NCBI GenBank assembly: GCA_963733035.1
Contig: CAVTBU010000010.1
Coordinates: 65,016-129,015, forward strand
Source: Pirellulales bacterium
Lineage (GTDB): Bacteria > Planctomycetota > Planctomycetia > Pirellulales > PALSA-1355
DNA: 64,000 nucleotides
Direction: 5' to 3'
Position numbers: made by a program. Positions 27,001-36,000 of the stretch are shown piece after piece; within the stretch, counting starts at the first letter, position 1; every line of letters begins with the position of its first letter.

Positions 27001-30000
27001 CACAGCAGAGCTTCACCTTGACGCCCTCAACGGAGACGACTTTGTCGTCGGCCATCGGACGGCCCGTCAATGGGCACTTGACCTGCTTCAGTTGACCGCT
27101 TTGCACCAATTGCAGGTTGGCTTTGGCGGCAAACTTCTCAGGGTTGGCGTTGAAGGCCTTCGGGCAATTGGGACAGCAGAATTCCACTTCGCCGCCATTG
27201 AACGCCACCTTGTGGTCGGCACTGGCGGGCTTTCCCGACACGGGGCACTTCAATTCGGCCTTTTCGTCGGCCGCTCGCAACGTACTCACAGCAAACATCG
27301 ATACGACCGCCAAGGCGGCCAACAGCATACGCGTCTTCATAGAATCGTCCTTTCCTAACAGGAGAAGATAAGTTCAACCGCACGGTCTTGGCCAAATACG
27401 GCGCCGACAAGTTCGAGTCAAACGCGACAACTCAGCCAGAGACCGACAACCGATTTCGAAACGAAATTACCACAATAGAGCTGTCCCGATCTTGGACTGC
27501 GCCCGCAATTGCGGGGGCAAGAGCCGGGACGAGAAGCGTCAAACTGTCCAGCGACAGTAGATCTTGTGCAGGGCAATGTCGGGCGGTTCGACCTGATGAG
27601 TCACCCAGGCTCCCGCGACTGCGAGCTGCGAAGCGGTGCCGCAGAACCGGGCGACGGCAATCACGCTTGAATGCTTCTGGTGGGTTTCGACTTGGTCTTT
27701 GCCGGTGACGATGGCCGGCTCGAGGCTGATCGTCTTGCAACTACACGGGGCGTCAGTCGCGCGAGGCGACTCGTTGGCGACCGAGTCGGTCGTGGTCGTT
27801 TTTCCAGCTTCGGCACAGCAGGAACGTTGGGTTTCCTGACAGCAGGCCGGGAGCTCCTCGGTTTCGGTTCGAGGGCCGCAACAGCAACTTCCGCCGCCGG
27901 CGATCGCTCCGGTTTTGCAACAGCGGGGCATGGCGCCCAGCACGGGCGCGGCGATCAGGCTGACAGCCAGCAGCGCCACGCCAAATTGCCGAACCAGTCG
28001 AGTGAGCATATGTGCGATTATTGCATTGTTGCCGGTGTGTTGAGCACAGCGGCAGTATTGTCGGCCAGTTTAACCCGCAAAGTCAAGCAACTTTGCCCTA
28101 CCTGACGCGTTTGTTGGAAAAAGCCGCCACGTGGTTGTCCGGCCGGGGCCGCCCGGGGGCGTCAGCGTTTTGCGAGCAACAGCTCCAAGTAGCTGCGGCG
28201 CTCGCTGTTGCGCAATTCGAGCCGGGTTGCCAGCGCGGCCACGGTCGCCTGCGCTGACTGCATGTTACGTTCGTCGACCAGCAGTTCGAGTTCAACGAAA
28301 TCCCCCAGGCCGTCAATGTGGTCGAGTGCCACGACAACCACGTGTCCTTGCCAGGGGAGCGATAGGTGACGGCGACGCTTGCGAACTTCCATCACCCTTT
28401 GAAACGATAGCACTTCCAGCAGCGACGCTGCCTCGGCGGCTGAACGCTCGCCGTCGGGCAGGGCAATTTCGATCTCTCGGCGGGTCTTGCTCAGGGAGTC
28501 AAGCTTGGGACCCTTGTAGGTAATATAGTTGTGGGGCCCGACGCGGCGCAATCGCAGGGCTTCATCCGTGGCCGCAAAGTCGCGAAGCGGGTGAGCATAA
28601 TAGCAGTCGACCTGCACCTGCTCGTCGCCGGCGGTGGCTCCCAATTCGACCAGCTTCTGTTCGAGGGCCGGCAGGTCGTTGACCGGGAATTTTTGTTCGA
28701 CTTCGATGGCCATGATGCCGCTCAGTTGTCGTTAGTGTTTCATTTGGCATGGCCCATTCTGCGAGACTCACCTGATGGATGCAACGGGCGAAGGTGCCAC
28801 TCCCTCGGCTCGGCCGACAAGCTTTTGGGTCTCGCTGGCGGTGCTGGCGGCCGTGATTTTCGTTTACGTGTTGCTGATGACGAATCGCGGCCGCACGCCG
28901 CAAGGCACGACCGGCCCGGCGATTGGCCGCGGCCTGGCGTATCTGCAACTCGAACCGCTCACGAGTGCCGACCCGGCCGTGACGCTCAAGGACTTGCAGG
29001 GGCGCGTTTCGCTGATCAACTTTTGGGGAACCTGGTGTCCTCCATGCATTCGCGAGCTGCCGCAGATCGTGGAACTGGCCGAGCGGTTTTCCGATCGCGA
29101 GGATTTTCGTCTCTACGCGGTGTCGTGCGGACAGGGGAGCGACGAGCAGCTCGATCCGCTGCGAGAGCAGACGGAAGCGTTTCTCGAGGCGCGTGGCACG
29201 AACCTGCCGACATATGCCGACCAGAATGCCGCTACCCGCCAGGCCATGACCATCAAGCTCGGCGTTTCGATAGCTTACCCGACAACGCTTATCCTGGATC
29301 GCGCTGGAACGATTCGCGGCTTTTGGCAGGGTTATCAAGGACGTGCCGTCGACGAGATGGGAAGCGTTGTTGAACAACTGCTCGACGAGAATTCGCAGGC
29401 CGCACGCTAAAACCTGCGCGTGCGGCTAGCCGGCGATGAGTCGGGCCTGCAGCTGTCGCGCGGCAGTTGCGGGATCCTGCGCCGCGGTGACGGCGCCGCT
29501 GACGGCGATTCGCGAGAAGCCGGCGTCGAGAACCTGGTCGACGTTTGCGGCCGTGATGCCGCCAATGGCAAATGCCGGTAAACGGATCTCCGCGGCCACG
29601 GCGCGGAGGAGTTCTGGACCGGTGAACTCGGCGAATTGTTTCGTGTGCGAGGGGAACGTGGGGCCAACACCGATGTAGTCGGCGCCGTCCAGCACCGCGG
29701 CTCTGGCTTGTTCGAGCGAGTGGGTCGAGAGGCCGACGAGCCCGCGTGGCCCTAGAATTCGCCGTGCGTCCTTGACTGTGAGTTCGTCCTGGCCGACGTG
29801 AACGCCGTCGGCGCCAGCGAGCAGCGCCACGTCGGGACGATCGTTCATGATGAACAACGTCTCTGTGCCCGTGCTGATGTCGCGCAACAAGCGAGCTCGC
29901 TCAAGGAGTTGGCGATCCGCCAGATTCTTATCGCGGAGCTGGAGCACGGATACTCCCGCGCCGATGAGCGACTGAACTGTGCCGCGAAACGAATCGATCG

Positions 30001-33000: not shown

Positions 33001-36000
33001 GAGATTCAGTGCATCGGCGCCACGACGCTCGACGAGTACCGCAAGTACATTGAAAAAGACAGCGCGCTGGATCGCCGCTTCCAGGTGGTGATGGTCGAGC
33101 CCTCGACCAAATCCGAAACGATCGAAATTCTCAAGGGACTTCGCGATCGCTACGAGCAGCACCACCGCGTGCAAATCACCGACGACGCGCTGGCCGCCTC
33201 GGTCGAACTTTCGAGCCGATACATCACCGGCCGCTGCTTACCCGACAAAGCCATCGATGTGATTGACGAGGCGGGTGCCCGCGTGCGGCTCAAGGCCATG
33301 ACCCGTCCGCCCGACTTGAAGGAGATCGACAGCGAGGTCGAGGCTCTGAACAAGGACAAGGAAGAAGCCGTGGCCAATCAGGATTTCGAGCGTGCGGCAT
33401 CGCTGCGGGATCAGGCCGATAAGCTCAAGAAGAAGAAGCAAAACATCACCCGCGACTGGCGCGAGAAATCGCGCGAGGCCGACGGCGTGGTCGATGAGGA
33501 AGTGATCGCCGAAGTGGTCAGCAAGATGACCGGCATCCCGCTGACGCGAATGACGACGGAAGACAGCATGCGGCTGATGCAGATGGAAACGGATCTGCAC
33601 TCCCGCGTGATCAGCCAGGAAGAGGCCATCAAAAGTATCTCGAAGGCGGTGCGCCGCAGCCGTAGCGGATTGAAGGATCCGAAACGGCCCACCGGTTGCT
33701 TCATCTTTGCCGGCCCCACGGGCGTCGGCAAAACGCTCCTGGCCAAGGCCCTGGCCGGATTCATGTTTGGCGATGACGACGCGCTGATCCAGATCGACAT
33801 GAGCGAGTATATGGAAAAGCACAACGTCAGCCGGCTGATCGGTGCCCCGCCGGGTTACGTGGGTTTCGAGGAAGGCGGCCAGTTGACCGAAAAGATTCGC
33901 CGCCGTCCGTACGCGGTGGTCTTGCTCGACGAAATCGAGAAGGCCCACCCCGACGTGTTCAACATGCTGTTGCAGGTCATGGAAGAAGGCCGATTGACCG
34001 ACAGCTTCGGTCGCAACGTCGACTTCCGCAACGCGATCCTGATTATGACCACCAATGCGGGTGCCGAAGCGATCAAGAACGAGAGCGCCTTTGGTTTTCA
34101 GGCTCCGGACGACGACGCGTCGTACGAGAACATGAAGGCCCGCGTGATGGAACGAATCGAGCGCGTGTTCCGGCCGGAGTTCTTGAACCGGGTCGACGAC
34201 GTGATCGTGTTCCGCCATTTGACGGTTGATGACCTCAAGCAGGTGGTGGATCTGGAACTGGGCAAGGTGCGCGAGCGACTCGCCGAGCGTGGCTTGAAGC
34301 TGGAACTCAGCGACGAGGCCAAGAAGTTCCTGATCCGCAAGGGATCGAACACCGACTTCGGTGCCCGGCCCCTCCGCCGTTCGATTGAAAACTTCGTCGA
34401 GGATCCGCTCTCCGAGGAGCTGCTCAAGGGCGAGTTCCAAGGGAAGGACACGATTCTGGTCGACGTCAAGGAAGTGGGCGACAAGAAGCAACTGTTCTTT
34501 ACGGGCACCGTTGCCGAGGGTGAAGAAGCCGCGGTGGGTGCCAGCAGCGGTTCGGAAGAAAAGCCCGAGGCGTAAGCGTCCGATAGCGGTCGAAGACCAA
34601 ACTTCGCCGTCCGCTGGCCCAGTGCCGGTGGGCGGCGGTTTTTTTGGGGTAACAAGGCCCCGGCGCCGTGCGCCAGTAGAATGGTGTTGGCGTCCTTTCT
34701 TGCGCATCGTTTGCGACCGGAGACTTCGTGATGCGGCGGCTTGCGAGTCGGTGCGGCGCACTTGGCGTTCTAATTTGCGGTTCGATTGGCGCCAGCCGCG
34801 CCGAGAATGTGCTTGCGACAGAACCCCATGCCGAAGCGGTTTCGCCATCGGCCTTCGACGGGAAGCAGGCCGGTGCCCAGCGGCAGGTCGAGGGCATTGC
34901 GCTCTGTTGGTGCCCGCCCGGGCGATTCGTGATGGGCAGCCCGCGGAATGAGCCGGAGTCGCCGACCGGGCGAAGATCAGGTCGAGGTGACTTTGACCAA
35001 AGGATTCTGGATCGGCAAATATGAGATCACACAGGGAGACTGGAAACGAATTGTCGGCGAACTGCCGGGCAAGCTGACGGAGGAGCTACCTGCGGGTGAC
35101 AACCTGCCGGTGGGCAATGTGAACTTCGCCGAGGCCGAAGCGTTTTGCAAAATGCTTACCGAGCTGGGACGAAAGGCGGGACAACTGCCCGGCGATTGGG
35201 AGTTTCGACTGCCCACCGAAGCGCAATGGGAATATGCCTGCCGGGCAGGAACGACAACGGCCACCGCATTTGGCGACCAACTCAGTAGCCGCCAGGCGAA
35301 CTTCAAGGGGCGGCCGTACAATGGCGCAGCGGCCGGGCCAGCGCTCGAATCGTGCCGCGCCCGTGGGAAGTTACCCGCCGAATGCCTGGGGCCTGCACGA
35401 CATGCACGGCAATACCTTCGAGTGGTGTCGCGATTGGTACCACCGGCGGTTGCCGGGTGGCACCGACCCGGACTTGTATGCTGCCCGGTCCACGGCGACT
35501 CGAAGTGAACAGGGCGGAGTGTCGCGATCGCGCCGCGGTGGTTGCTGGGCTGACTGCCGGAGCGCCTTTCGGCTGCGGTTCGAACCGGAGCGGAAGTACG
35601 ACCACATTGGGTTTCGCGTGGTCGCGGTCAGACCGTAGTAGGCGGAAGCCGCCAAGCGCAATTGCGCCATCTGCGGAGGTTTCACCGACCGAGCGGCCGT
35701 ATAATGCGCGGACAAGGAAGAGCTTGCGGCCGACTTTCGGCTGGGACGCTAGCAAGCCGTCGCCGACCGGGGAAGATCGTCTTGCCTGGTTTACCTGGGC
35801 GTTGGTTTTCGTCTGATCGGCAATCTTTTCTCAAGCGGCAGGGTGGCCGCGACGAAGAATCCCTGATAGCCGGGGCAGCGCGCGCCGCGGCATTGCTGGC
35901 AACTGGATCCTCGCACATGTCCTCTTCACCACTGTCGCACGAACGTACCAACCACGGCTTTGTCGAGGCCGTGGCCGATTGGGTTGCCAGCCTGGGTGGG

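What a model noticed while it worked through the whole genome (the two positions that open the first line are those of the whole stretch)
29426..34575. ClpC N-domain fused to thiamine-phosphate synthase
g05664 (C10:94441-96054, 537 aa) is a thiamine-phosphate synthase (ThiD2 + TMP-TENI domains, residues 199-517). At its N terminus it carries a complete double-repeat ClpC-type N-domain (residues 1-145). The second repeat keeps the ATEHLLLGL motif; the first has PEVLLGLL. The gene lies two genes from clpC (g05666). The genome also has the protein-arginine kinase pair McsB/McsA (g05760/g05761, C10:190641-192319). It has two free-standing ClpC N-domain proteins as well: g02806 (159 aa, C5:2517395-2517874) and g05589 (147 aa, C10:11102-11545). 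The ClpC N-domain is the phospho-arginine receptor in Firmicutes and in actinobacterial ClpC2. So this planctomycete appears to own a phospho-arginine sys [...]
Evidence so far: pfam.tsv rows, plus BLASTP of residues 1-175 against the genome's own ClpC N-domain: 27% identity over 156 aa, E 3e-10. Swiss-Prot ThiE of Rhodopirellula and cyanobacteria aligns only to residues 185-537. The fusion is not a gene-call artefact. Of the 120 best homologues (53-70% identity, 467-758 aa), 103 carry PF02861 (Clp_N) together with PF02581 and PF17792; where a source names them, the name is only thiamine phosphate synthase or pyrophosphorylase. McsB is 46-48% identical to Swiss-Prot protein-arginine kinases, and NCBIfam names it 'protein arginine kinase'. 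McsB families are in 84% of Pirellulales and 85% of Planctomycetota genomes, against 14-15% of Bacteria (relatives.tsv, call 126) [...]
(Added by a program. Inside this text positions count along the whole contig: contig position 65,016 is position 1 of the stretch shown here. "Call 12" and the like, gene names such as g00115 and contig names such as C1 are that model's own, and its searches are not shown. The text may have been shortened before it was handed on; [...] marks where a part breaks off. The agent that wrote the report below was given it as the finding of a first reader that could run no searches.)

Follow-up and report, generated by a model that had tools for sequence, protein, structure and literature searches.

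The report
ClpC-type reader domain on thiamine enzyme
In a large group of uncultured planctomycetes, the only enzyme for the last steps of vitamin B1 synthesis carries a copy of the substrate-receptor domain of the neighbouring ClpC protease gene, which hints that B1 synthesis is tied to the cell's phospho-arginine stress system.

Summary
Window 29426-31039 (-) encodes a 537-aa protein made of a complete but diverged double-repeat Clp N-domain (res 1-144), a disordered linker (145-189), ThiD2 (HMP-P kinase) and ThiE. It is the genome's only ThiD2 and only ThiE.

The fusion is under purifying selection (dN/dS 0.10-0.30). It occurs in 121 of 301 sampled genomes of the same order, and outside that order in none of a 401-genome phylum sample.

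thiE lies head-to-head with TPR-clpC in relatives with and without the fusion. This suggests the domain was copied from clpC. One lineage carries a second, 78-88% ClpC-identical N-domain in the same gene.

The fused domain keeps the determinants of ClpC's pArg1 pocket (T6, T106, E107; near-invariant). It has lost pArg2 (L30-P31 replace T-E). Mycobacterial ClpC2, a proven one-site pArg sensor, shows the same pattern.

The genome encodes McsB, McsA, a YwlE-like phosphatase, ClpS and a ClpC whose N-domain has both pockets.

pArg binding and its effect on the enzyme remain inferred. My best reading, at about 0.4, is a tethered pArg reader that couples B1 synthesis to the McsB/ClpC system. No publication describing the fusion was found.

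The parts
29426..31039 (-). Whole fusion gene, 537 aa: Clp N-domain, linker, ThiD2, ThiE
   Evidence: ORF. Pfam and NCBIfam. It is the only TMP-TENI and the only ThiD2 match in the genome.
30608..31039 (-). Diverged double-repeat Clp N-domain, residues 1-144 (8 helices)
   Evidence: AF2 pLDDT 87.9, pTM 0.85. Foldseek and VIA-align match ClpC, ClpC1, ClpC2 and ClpT N-domains. hhalign probability 97.7%. dN/dS 0.10-0.30 in 10 pairs.
31022..31024 (-). Thr6, the N-cap of helix 1. It corresponds to ClpC T7 and ClpC2 T99 (pArg1 pocket).
   Evidence: Thr in all 100 sequences that have a residue in this column, out of 113 full-length homologues, and in 25 of 25 in A1. T7 is part of pArg1. ClpC2 T99A abolishes pArg binding. 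Model residues 1..143 align to ClpC2 chain residues 94..233.
30716..30724 (-). Thr106-Glu107-His108, the second-repeat TEH motif. E107 corresponds to ClpC E106 (pArg1).
   Evidence: T in 112/113, E in 113/113 and H in 111/113 homologues. E106 is the pArg1 determinant.
30944..30952 (-). Leu30-Pro31-Glu32, which replace the T-E-H of the first repeat. The pArg2 glutamate is lost.
   Evidence: The ungapped BLASTP and hhalign alignments to the genome's own ClpC put L30/P31/E32 opposite T30/E31/H32. E32 is the pArg2 determinant.
30473..30607 (-). Flexible linker, residues 145-189, that begins with the conserved GHQPGPLP motif
   Evidence: pLDDT is below 50 for residues 145-187 in the full-length model, whose pTM is 0.55. 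The motif is conserved. Linker dN/dS is 0.26-1.03.
30077..30445 (-). ThiD2 domain (HMP-P kinase), residues 199-321
   Evidence: PF17792, E 9.9e-39. The function is as stated in passages of PMC12345177.
29489..30028 (-). TMP-TENI / ThiE catalytic barrel, residues 338-517
   Evidence: PF02581, E 2.3e-54. TIGR00693 and NF002727 score above their cut-offs.
31276..31854 (+). TPR/membrane protein gene, divergent from the fusion gene and upstream of clpC
   Evidence: Weak TPR Pfam matches. It is found next to thiE in 56 of 58 fusion loci and 13 of 15 non-fusion loci that have at least 2 kb of upstream sequence.
32035..34575 (+). clpC, 846 aa. Its N-domain (32035-32475) is the likely source of the fused domain.
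   Evidence: Pfam and NCBIfam. The NTD matches Mtb ClpC1 NTD at E 7e-50. It is adjacent to thiE in 56 of 58 fusion loci and 15 of 15 non-fusion loci.

Best explanation
The gene encodes the organism's only HMP-P kinase/thiamine-phosphate synthase (ThiD2-ThiE). An about 45-residue disordered linker tethers a ClpC-type N-domain to its N terminus.

The domain was most likely copied from the 5' end of the neighbouring, divergently transcribed clpC. It then diverged, but it kept one of ClpC's two phospho-arginine pockets, pArg1. This is the pocket that mycobacterial ClpC2 also keeps.

I propose that it works as a one-site reader of phospho-arginine. When the arginine kinase McsB/McsA is active, the domain binds pArg-bearing proteins, possibly autophosphorylated McsB itself, or free pArg. 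This draws the enzyme into the McsB-ClpC pathway or changes its assembly. Vitamin B1 synthesis would then be adjusted after translation, during proteotoxic stress.

Shown here: the architecture, the fold, purifying selection, conservation of the pocket residues, the synteny and the presence of the pArg gene set.

Inferred: pArg binding, the direction of the effect on ThiE, and the origin of the domain from clpC.
For: Fold and homology.

Pocket conservation:
- The three elements that form the ClpC2 pArg pocket are the N terminus of helix 1, loop a2-a3 and loop a5-a6 (PMC13345244, section read).
- These are the most conserved parts of the fused domain in 113 full-length homologues: F5-T6-P7; E40-P41-E42-C43-R44; Y98-P99-R100-P101-L102..A105-T106-E107-H108.
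- T7 and E106 define pArg1, which is the site most relevant for activating ClpC; E32 defines pArg2 (PMC12583610, passages).
- The fusion keeps T6 and E107 and has P31 opposite the pArg2 glutamate.
- M. smegmatis ClpC2 CTD shows the same pattern, with FTP kept, the first TEH degenerate and the second GTEH kept (alignment). ClpC2 binds pArg at about 5 uM, and T99A abolishes binding.

Selection: N-domain dN/dS is 0.10-0.30, against 0.13-0.25 for the catalytic domains and 0.26-1.03 for the linker.

Tethering: the linker has pLDDT below 50 and the full-length pTM is 0.55.

pArg gene set.

Origin and link to ClpC:
- thiE lies beside TPR/clpC in 57 of 58 fusion loci and 15 of 15 non-fusion loci.
- A second, nearly canonical ClpC NTD sits in the same gene in P0164 (88% identity to this ClpC NTD) and in L052 (78%).

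Control point: the gene is the sole ThiE and ThiD2. No TPP riboswitch was found in the genome, near thiE or thiC, or in 61 genomes of the order.
Against: There are no binding data.

The pocket loops are remodelled compared with ClpC and ClpC2. Loop a2-a3 reads EPECR instead of EGSGV, and loop a5-a6 carries a 5-residue insertion, PRPLE. The ligand could therefore differ.

The residue that aligns with ClpC R9, which lies near pArg1, is Gly or Ala.

The site mapping rests on sequence and profile alignments and on the ranges of structural alignments. It does not rest on inspected coordinates. The primary structure paper (Trentini 2016) was not held.

McsB is present in 292 of 301 genomes of the order, whether or not they carry the fusion. 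There is therefore no co-occurrence signal.

Relatives without the fusion also lack a detectable TPP riboswitch, so the fusion is not needed to make up for that absence.

Nothing shows which way pArg would act on the enzyme.
Confidence: 0.4

Rival explanations
1. The domain is a protein-docking module that does not depend on pArg. It binds a ClpC-system partner such as ClpS, the ClpC M-domain or AAA1 surface, or an unknown adaptor, or it binds an acidic helix of another protomer as in ClpC2 dimers. It would then control delivery of ThiE to ClpCP or the oligomeric state of the enzyme.
For: ClpS is encoded in the genome. In the ClpC resting state the NTD pArg pockets contact M-domains (PMC12583610). 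In ClpC2 the same pocket holds an acidic residue of helix a8 of a second protomer. The fusion family has its own invariant surface residues (E40, E42, C43, R44, W123, H139, R140) and a conserved GHQPGPLP motif followed by acidic residues. ClpA-N:ClpS structures are among the fold matches (Z 12.7-13.2).
Against: No partner was tested, because the complex prediction was never accepted by the queue. MecA was not found. Retention of exactly the T and T-E-H determinants of pArg1 is not required by this model.
Confidence: 0.25
2. The remodelled pocket senses a small phosphorylated metabolite, for example a thiamine-pathway phosphate, and gives feedback control of ThiD2-ThiE.
For: The pocket loops are remodelled yet invariant within the family. 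The enzyme handles phosphorylated substrates. No TPP riboswitch was detected in this order.
Against: No Clp N-domain that binds such a ligand came up in the papers I read. The full-length model shows no fixed contact between the N-domain and the catalytic domains (pTM 0.55). The second captured N-domain in P0164 is canonical ClpC-type, which points to ClpC-like binding.
Confidence: 0.1
3. The domain is a decoy that soaks up natural products or other agents aimed at the ClpC N-domain, as ClpC2 does for cyclomarin A in mycobacteria.
For: ClpC2 sequesters CymA and rufomycin. This genome also has two free-standing N-domain proteins about 60% identical to its ClpC NTD.
Against: The fused domain is only 27% identical to the ClpC NTD, while the ClpC NTD itself is 100% conserved over 127 aa in 22 of 30 related loci. 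A decoy should mimic its target. Fusing a decoy to the only ThiE has no evident logic.
Confidence: 0.07
4. The domain is a passenger left by a local duplication. It has only a structural or solubility role and no ligand.
For: clpC is the direct neighbour in fusion and non-fusion relatives, so an accidental capture is easy. Whole families of the order do without the domain (for example 0/33, 0/33 and 0/32).
Against: dN/dS is 0.10-0.30, like the catalytic domains. Residues are near-invariant and clustered in one pocket. The domain is retained in 15 families of the order. Only 33 short homologues exist, against 225 fused ones.
Confidence: 0.1

Closest known systems
Mycobacterial/streptomycete ClpC2 (C-terminal Clp N-domain)
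   Same: It is a ClpC-NTD homologue outside an AAA+ unfoldase. It keeps one pArg pocket (the N-cap Thr of helix 1 plus the second-repeat GTEH) and has a degenerate first TEH. Fold match: Z 12.4.
   Different: ClpC2 is a small transcriptional repressor with its own N-terminal dimerising domain. Here the partner is a biosynthetic enzyme, the domain is N-terminal, the pocket loops differ (EPECR and the PRPLE insertion), and pArg binding is untested.
ClpC / ClpC1 N-terminal domain (B. subtilis, S. aureus, M. tuberculosis)
   Same: It has the same 8-helix double-repeat fold (Z 13.8-15.1). It starts at residue 1 with M-x-x-x-F-T, and the pArg1 determinants are kept.
   Different: Identity is only 27%. 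pArg2 is lost. There is no AAA+ body. It evolves much faster than the neighbouring ClpC NTD (50-69% identity against about 100% among the same relatives).
Plant ClpT1/ClpT2
   Same: They are free Clp N-domain proteins, and ClpT2 gives the best VIA-align Z (15.3).
   Different: From my own knowledge, not from a call: ClpT proteins bind the ClpP core in plastids. Identity is 17-18%. They are not fused to an enzyme.
Cyanobacterial-type ThiD2-ThiE (NCBIfam NF002727 / PRK02615)
   Same: Residues 192-534 match the 349-position model over its positions 9-344 and score above the cut-off. Relatives without the N-domain have this two-domain form.
   Different: The extra 190 N-terminal residues (N-domain plus linker) are not part of that family.

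Membership tests
Clp N-domain (PF02861, double-repeat fold) | Pfam score above the gathering cut-off | tested here: met
   37.2 bits against a cut-off of 20.7. Only the second repeat (residues 104-141) is matched.
Clp N-domain (PF02861, double-repeat fold) | Two four-helix repeats that form one 8-helix pseudo-symmetric domain | tested here: met
   The AF2 model has 8 helices, pLDDT 87.9. It aligns over residues 1-143/147 with solved N-domains at Z 12-15. All 28 Foldseek hits at E<=1e-3 are listed as Clp/Hsp100 N-domains.
ClpC-type phospho-arginine receptor | pArg1 pocket determinants (ClpC T7 and E106) | tested here: met
   T6 and E107 (with T106 and H108) are present and near-invariant. This is by alignment, not by inspected coordinates.
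ClpC-type phospho-arginine receptor | pArg2 pocket determinant (ClpC E32 within GTEH of repeat 1) | tested here: not met
   L30-P31-E32 align with T-E-H, so Pro stands in place of the glutamate.
ClpC-type phospho-arginine receptor | Measured binding of pArg or pArg-proteins | not testable with these tools
   This needs MST, ITC or pull-down with purified domain.
ClpC2 family | N-terminal dimerising/DNA-binding domain followed by a C-terminal Clp N-domain; repressor of its own promoter | tested here: not met
   The architecture here is N-domain, linker, ThiD2, ThiE. No other domain was found.
Thiamine-phosphate synthase, ThiD2-ThiE type (NF002727) | Equivalog model above its curated cut-off | tested here: met
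   380.1 bits against a cut-off of 335. TIGR00693 scores 181 against 145.
Protein arginine kinase McsB (elsewhere in the genome) | NCBIfam equivalog above its cut-off | tested here: met
   NF002194 scores 462 bits against a cut-off of 385.
McsA activator (elsewhere in the genome) | NCBIfam equivalog above its cut-off | tested here: inconclusive
   NF053706 gives E 2.8e-34 but 118.5 bits against a cut-off of 210. The gene is adjacent to mcsB.
YwlE-type protein arginine phosphatase (elsewhere in the genome) | LMW-PTP P-loop with Thr at position 5 | tested here: met
   The P-loop reads C-T-G-N-T-C-R-S in L012:1477-2730. The rule is taken from passages of PMC7772506. Activity was not tested.

The most novel reading that the evidence does not exclude
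In a large clade of uncultured Pirellulales, arginine phosphorylation is read directly by a biosynthetic enzyme, not only by ClpC as a degradation tag. A ClpC-derived pArg1 reader fused in cis to the sole ThiD2-ThiE would gate vitamin B1 synthesis after translation, according to McsB activity. This would happen in an order where the otherwise near-universal TPP riboswitch was not detected. The same gene captured a ClpC N-domain a second time in one lineage, which would mean that selection repeatedly favoured this coupling.
Probability: 0.2. Interest if true: 0.8.

Novelty: new variant of a known kind. Interest (0 to 1): 0.6.

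Why it matters
In the papers I read, phospho-arginine signalling is described for Firmicutes and Actinobacteria, and its known readers are ClpC/ClpC1 and ClpC2.

A conserved ClpC-type reader on a metabolic enzyme, in a planctomycete order that almost universally encodes McsB, would extend the system in two ways: to a new phylum and to a new kind of output, namely control of a vitamin pathway.

It also offers a natural test case for how a receptor domain is copied from a neighbouring gene and repurposed. An older diverged copy and a younger near-canonical copy sit side by side in one lineage.

The claim is directly testable with a 150-residue recombinant domain and two point mutants.

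Tried and rejected
Complex prediction of N-domain 1-160 against ThiD2-ThiE 190-537. The queue was full every time, so the job never ran and there is no result.

Co-occurrence of the fusion with McsB. This is uninformative, because McsB is in 292 of 301 genomes of the order and the fusion in 121 of 301.

RNA evidence. No RNA holder was listed among 7 runs, and the best DNA holder had a 0.45 share of words.

The primary pArg-ClpC structure paper (Trentini 2016) was not held under its DOI or its PMC id. The site definitions were taken from PMC12583610 and PMC13345244 instead.

ESM Atlas returned only generic Clp_N clusters.

TPP riboswitch upstream of the fusion gene: none in window 26000-38000.

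'Short' N-domain+ThiD2 proteins as a separate architecture: rejected. In 3 of 3 genomes examined (G653, G668, G620) the TMP-TENI part follows in another frame, so these are frameshifts in low-completeness assemblies.

Stand-alone version of this N-domain subfamily. Only 33 short hits were found, and many of them come from short contigs or carry no contig record, so they may be fragments.

Single origin of the fusion. The quick tree of the ThiD2-ThiE part has 79 rows. I left out L055, L056, L065, L098 and L105, and identical rows. It needs 8 label changes, but well-supported branches force only 1. The label is clustered (0 of 500 shuffles as low). The careful tree did not finish, so this is unresolved.

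CtsR and MecA were not found in the 92%-complete genome.

Searches for the fusion in print, and for McsB in planctomycetes, found nothing relevant in the listings. The search of earlier findings returned nothing.

Full report
WHAT IS THERE

Window 29426-31039 (minus strand) is one 537-aa ORF. Pfam finds three families: Clp_N at residues 104-141, ThiD2 at 199-321 and TMP-TENI at 338-517. The NCBIfam thiamine-phosphate-synthase equivalog NF002727 covers residues 192-534 and scores above its cut-off (380 against 335 bits). ThiD2 is described as an HMP-P kinase in PMC12345177 (passages).

The gene is the only TMP-TENI match and the only ThiD2 match in the 92%-complete genome. The whole de novo route to thiamine phosphate therefore passes through it.

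The window is C10:65016-129015.

THE N-TERMINAL DOMAIN IS A COMPLETE CLP N-DOMAIN

- Residues 1-175 align with the genome's own ClpC N-domain at 27% identity over 156 aa (E 1e-10).
- A profile of 25 homologues aligns with the ClpC-type N-domains of this genome at probability 97.7% (E 1.9e-12, 140 columns).
- AlphaFold2 gives a confident 8-helix domain (pLDDT 87.9, pTM 0.85).
- Foldseek returns 28 PDB hits at E<=1e-3, and those listed are all Clp/Hsp100 N-domains.
- VIA-align gives Z 15.3 (ClpT2), 15.1 (ClpC1 NTD, model 1-143 against chain 1-143), 13.8 (5hbn, the ClpC NTD with pArg) and 12.4 (ClpC2 CTD). Of 192 chains, 105 score Z>=8.

In the full-length model the N-domain and the enzyme are each confident. 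Residues 145-187 have pLDDT below 50 and the overall pTM is 0.55. The domain is therefore flexibly tethered, with no predicted fixed contact to the catalytic part.

THE FUSION IS REAL, OLD AND SELECTED

A search with residues 1-185 found 225 proteins at E<=1e-3. All 120 best hits carry ThiD2, 103 carry Clp_N and 98 carry all three families. Only 33 short homologues exist, and many of them come from short contigs or carry no contig record, so they may be fragments.

In a 401-genome sample of the phylum, only this genome and one other of the same order matched at E<=1e-8. In a 301-genome sample of the order, 121 matched at E<=1e-6. One of them, G674, matched only by a weak hit in an 870-aa frame that is probably ClpC itself.

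The pattern follows families:
- With the fusion: 28/32, 17/17, 17/18, 12/12, 6/6, 17/32 and 9/13.
- Without it: 0/33, 0/33, 0/32, 0/20, 0/11 and 0/8.

Nearly all matches lie in open frames of 500 aa or more. Three shorter ones that I examined are frameshifted inside TMP-TENI.

The named records are all metagenome-assembled genomes, labelled Pirellulales, Thermoguttaceae or Planctomycetaceae. The cultured Botrimarina colliarenosi and the Bythopirellula MAGs match only the ThiD2-ThiE part.

Pairwise dN/dS in 10 pairs is 0.10-0.30 for the N-domain, 0.14-0.24 for ThiD2 and 0.13-0.25 for TMP-TENI. It is 0.26-1.03 for the linker, where three pairs had no computable dS.

WHERE THE DOMAIN PROBABLY CAME FROM

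The fusion gene is head-to-head with a TPR/membrane gene followed by clpC. Among 90 thiE loci, I classified each with a profile of the N-domain: 67 fused (two of them weak) and 23 not fused. I then took those with at least 2 kb of upstream sequence.
- 58 fused loci: TPR in 56 and the ClpC N-domain in 56.
- 15 unfused loci: TPR in 13 and ClpC in 15.

The thiE-clpC neighbourhood thus occurs with and without the fusion. That fits a neighbourhood older than the fusion, although the tree does not settle the order of events.

The fused domain begins at residue 1 with M-x-x-x-F-T, as ClpC does. An inverted local duplication of the clpC 5' end would place it exactly there. This is inference; no nucleotide trace remains.

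A second capture supports the scenario. Protein P0164 (698 aa) and the 727-aa ORF of locus L052 (on a 422-kb MAG contig with the same TPR-clpC neighbours) carry the old diverged N-domain and then a second N-domain. In P0164 this second copy is 88% identical to this genome's ClpC NTD and still begins MYERFTDRAR; in L052 it is 78% identical. ThiD2-ThiE follows.

A quick tree of the ThiD2-ThiE part (79 rows) shows the fusion label clustered (0 of 500 shuffles as low). It cannot decide between one origin with losses and several gains: 8 changes are needed, but well-supported branches force only 1. The careful search did not finish.

THE PHOSPHO-ARGININE QUESTION

Passages of PMC12583610 state that E106 and T7 belong to pocket pArg1, E32 belongs to pArg2, and pArg1 matters most for activation by pArg.

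PMC13345244 (sections read) states the following about ClpC2:
- It keeps only one of the two sites.
- The pocket is built from the N terminus of helix 1, loop a2-a3 and loop a5-a6.
- It binds pArg at about 5 uM.
- T99A abolishes binding.

In the fused domain, T6 aligns with ClpC T6/T7. The structural alignment range (model 1..143 against ClpC2 chain 94..233) puts it opposite ClpC2 T99. T106-E107-H108 align with the second GTEH. In 113 full-length homologues, T6 is Thr in all 100 that have the column, T106 is kept in 112, E107 in 113 and H108 in 111.

In the first repeat, L30-P31-E32 stand opposite T-E-H, so the pArg2 glutamate is gone. The N-cap of helix 5 is Ser81 (100 of 113).

M. smegmatis ClpC2 CTD shows the same pattern in the alignment: FTP is kept, the first motif is degenerate and the second GTEH is kept.

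The three pocket elements are also the most conserved stretches of the family. Two of them are remodelled, however. Loop a2-a3 reads E-P-E-C-R, and loop a5-a6 has a five-residue insertion, P-R-P-L-E. The position of ClpC R9 is Gly or Ala. The pocket is clearly functional, but pArg as its ligand is plausible rather than shown.

THE REST OF THE SYSTEM IS PRESENT

- McsB scores above the NCBIfam cut-off.
- An adjacent McsA-like protein has E 2.8e-34 but scores below its cut-off.
- A 417-aa protein joins a part that, from my own reading of its sequence, looks like Sua5/YwlC (it was not scanned against a family library) to an LMW-PTP whose P-loop C-T-G-N-T-C-R-S has Thr at position 5. That residue gives YwlE its arginine specificity, according to passages of PMC7772506.
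- ClpS is present.
- The ClpC N-domain matches M. tuberculosis ClpC1 NTD at E 7e-50, with both FT/GTEH pairs.
- CtsR and MecA were not found.
- McsB is in 292 of 301 genomes of the order (215 of 217 good ones).
- Chlamydial ClpC degrades pArg-casein in vitro (PMC10128030, passages). From my own knowledge, Chlamydia is another member of the PVC group.

HOW IT MOST LIKELY WORKS

I commit, at about 0.4, to a tethered one-site pArg reader. It would couple the sole ThiD2-ThiE to the McsB/ClpC system, either by recruiting the enzyme to pArg-bearing proteins or to McsB, or by a ClpC2-like change of assembly.

The rivals are:
- a pArg-independent docking module for ClpS, ClpC or the domain itself (0.25);
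- a metabolite sensor (0.1);
- a decoy (0.07);
- a ligand-less passenger (0.1).

The second, canonical ClpC N-domain captured by the same gene argues that what is selected is a ClpC-NTD-like activity. Purifying selection and the conserved pocket argue against a passenger. The low identity to a ClpC NTD that is itself 100% conserved over 127 aa in 22 of 30 related loci argues against a decoy.

No TPP riboswitch was detected in this genome, near thiE or thiC, or in 61 genomes of the order. The positive controls matched in 10 of 14 model genomes. Only part of the candidates per genome were scored. How thiamine synthesis is regulated here is therefore open, and a post-translational route is conceivable, though unfused relatives lack the riboswitch as well.

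NOVELTY

Clp N-domains outside unfoldases are known (ClpC2, ClpT). A fusion to a biosynthetic enzyme is not described in any paper listed by my searches. Planctomycete McsB is not treated in any paper listed. The sources name these proteins only as thiamine-phosphate synthase or pyrophosphorylase.

I rate it a new variant of a known kind, with interest 0.6.

Noticed in passing
whole genome G000; L046-L050, L051; 61 genomes of the order: No TPP riboswitch (RF00059) was found in this genome, near thiE or thiC, or in any of 61 sampled genomes of the order. The same search matched in 10 of 14 control genomes. Only 52-150 candidates per genome were scored, so this needs an exhaustive scan.
   Followed up: partly
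P0164; L052:4001-6184: One lineage has a ThiE with two N-domains: the old diverged one, then a second near-canonical ClpC N-domain (88% and 78% identical to this ClpC NTD), then ThiD2-ThiE. It keeps the same TPR-clpC neighbours.
   Followed up: yes
window 32035-32415 and loci L017-L045: The first 127 residues of ClpC are 100% identical in 22 of 30 related loci from several genera and families. In the same loci the fused N-domain is only 50-69% identical.
   Followed up: partly
L012:1477-2730 (-) and 936-1550 (-) (G000 C5:957802-961233): A 417-aa protein joins a part that, from my own reading of the sequence, looks like Sua5/YwlC to an LMW-PTP with the YwlE-type P-loop CTGNTCRS. The next gene looks like RpiB. 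I identified these two parts by eye and did not scan them against a family library. From memory, this echoes the B. subtilis ywlC-ywlE-ywlF order.
   Followed up: partly
L007:1167-1767 (G000 C5:~1449157-1449757): A third small Clp_N locus has its first repeat in one frame and its second in another. It is a frameshifted gene or an assembly error.
   Followed up: no
L001:1489-1932 (-), L004:1195-1674 (+): The two free-standing N-domain proteins are 60-61% identical to the ClpC NTD. They have no close orthologues even in the same genus. In a 61-genome sample of the order, extra short N-domain genes turn up sporadically.
   Followed up: partly
window 28162-28713 (-): A CYTH-domain protein (the family that includes thiamine triphosphatases) lies just beyond thiE. 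In two relatives (L041, L044) it is directly downstream of the fusion gene.
   Followed up: no
P0180, P0186, P0192, P0194, P0250, P0265: The profile search also pulled out long proteins that consist of many tandem Clp_N repeats and nothing else, for example 1762 aa with 9 Pfam stretches. Their function is unknown.
   Followed up: no
window 31276-31854 (+): A small TPR/membrane protein gene sits immediately upstream of clpC in nearly all relatives. It may be co-transcribed with clpC.
   Followed up: no
P0108: One homologue of the fusion is labelled Singulisphaera sp. (a different order), although no match outside the order was found in the 401-genome phylum sample. This may be a binning or label issue, or a gene transfer.
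   Followed up: no
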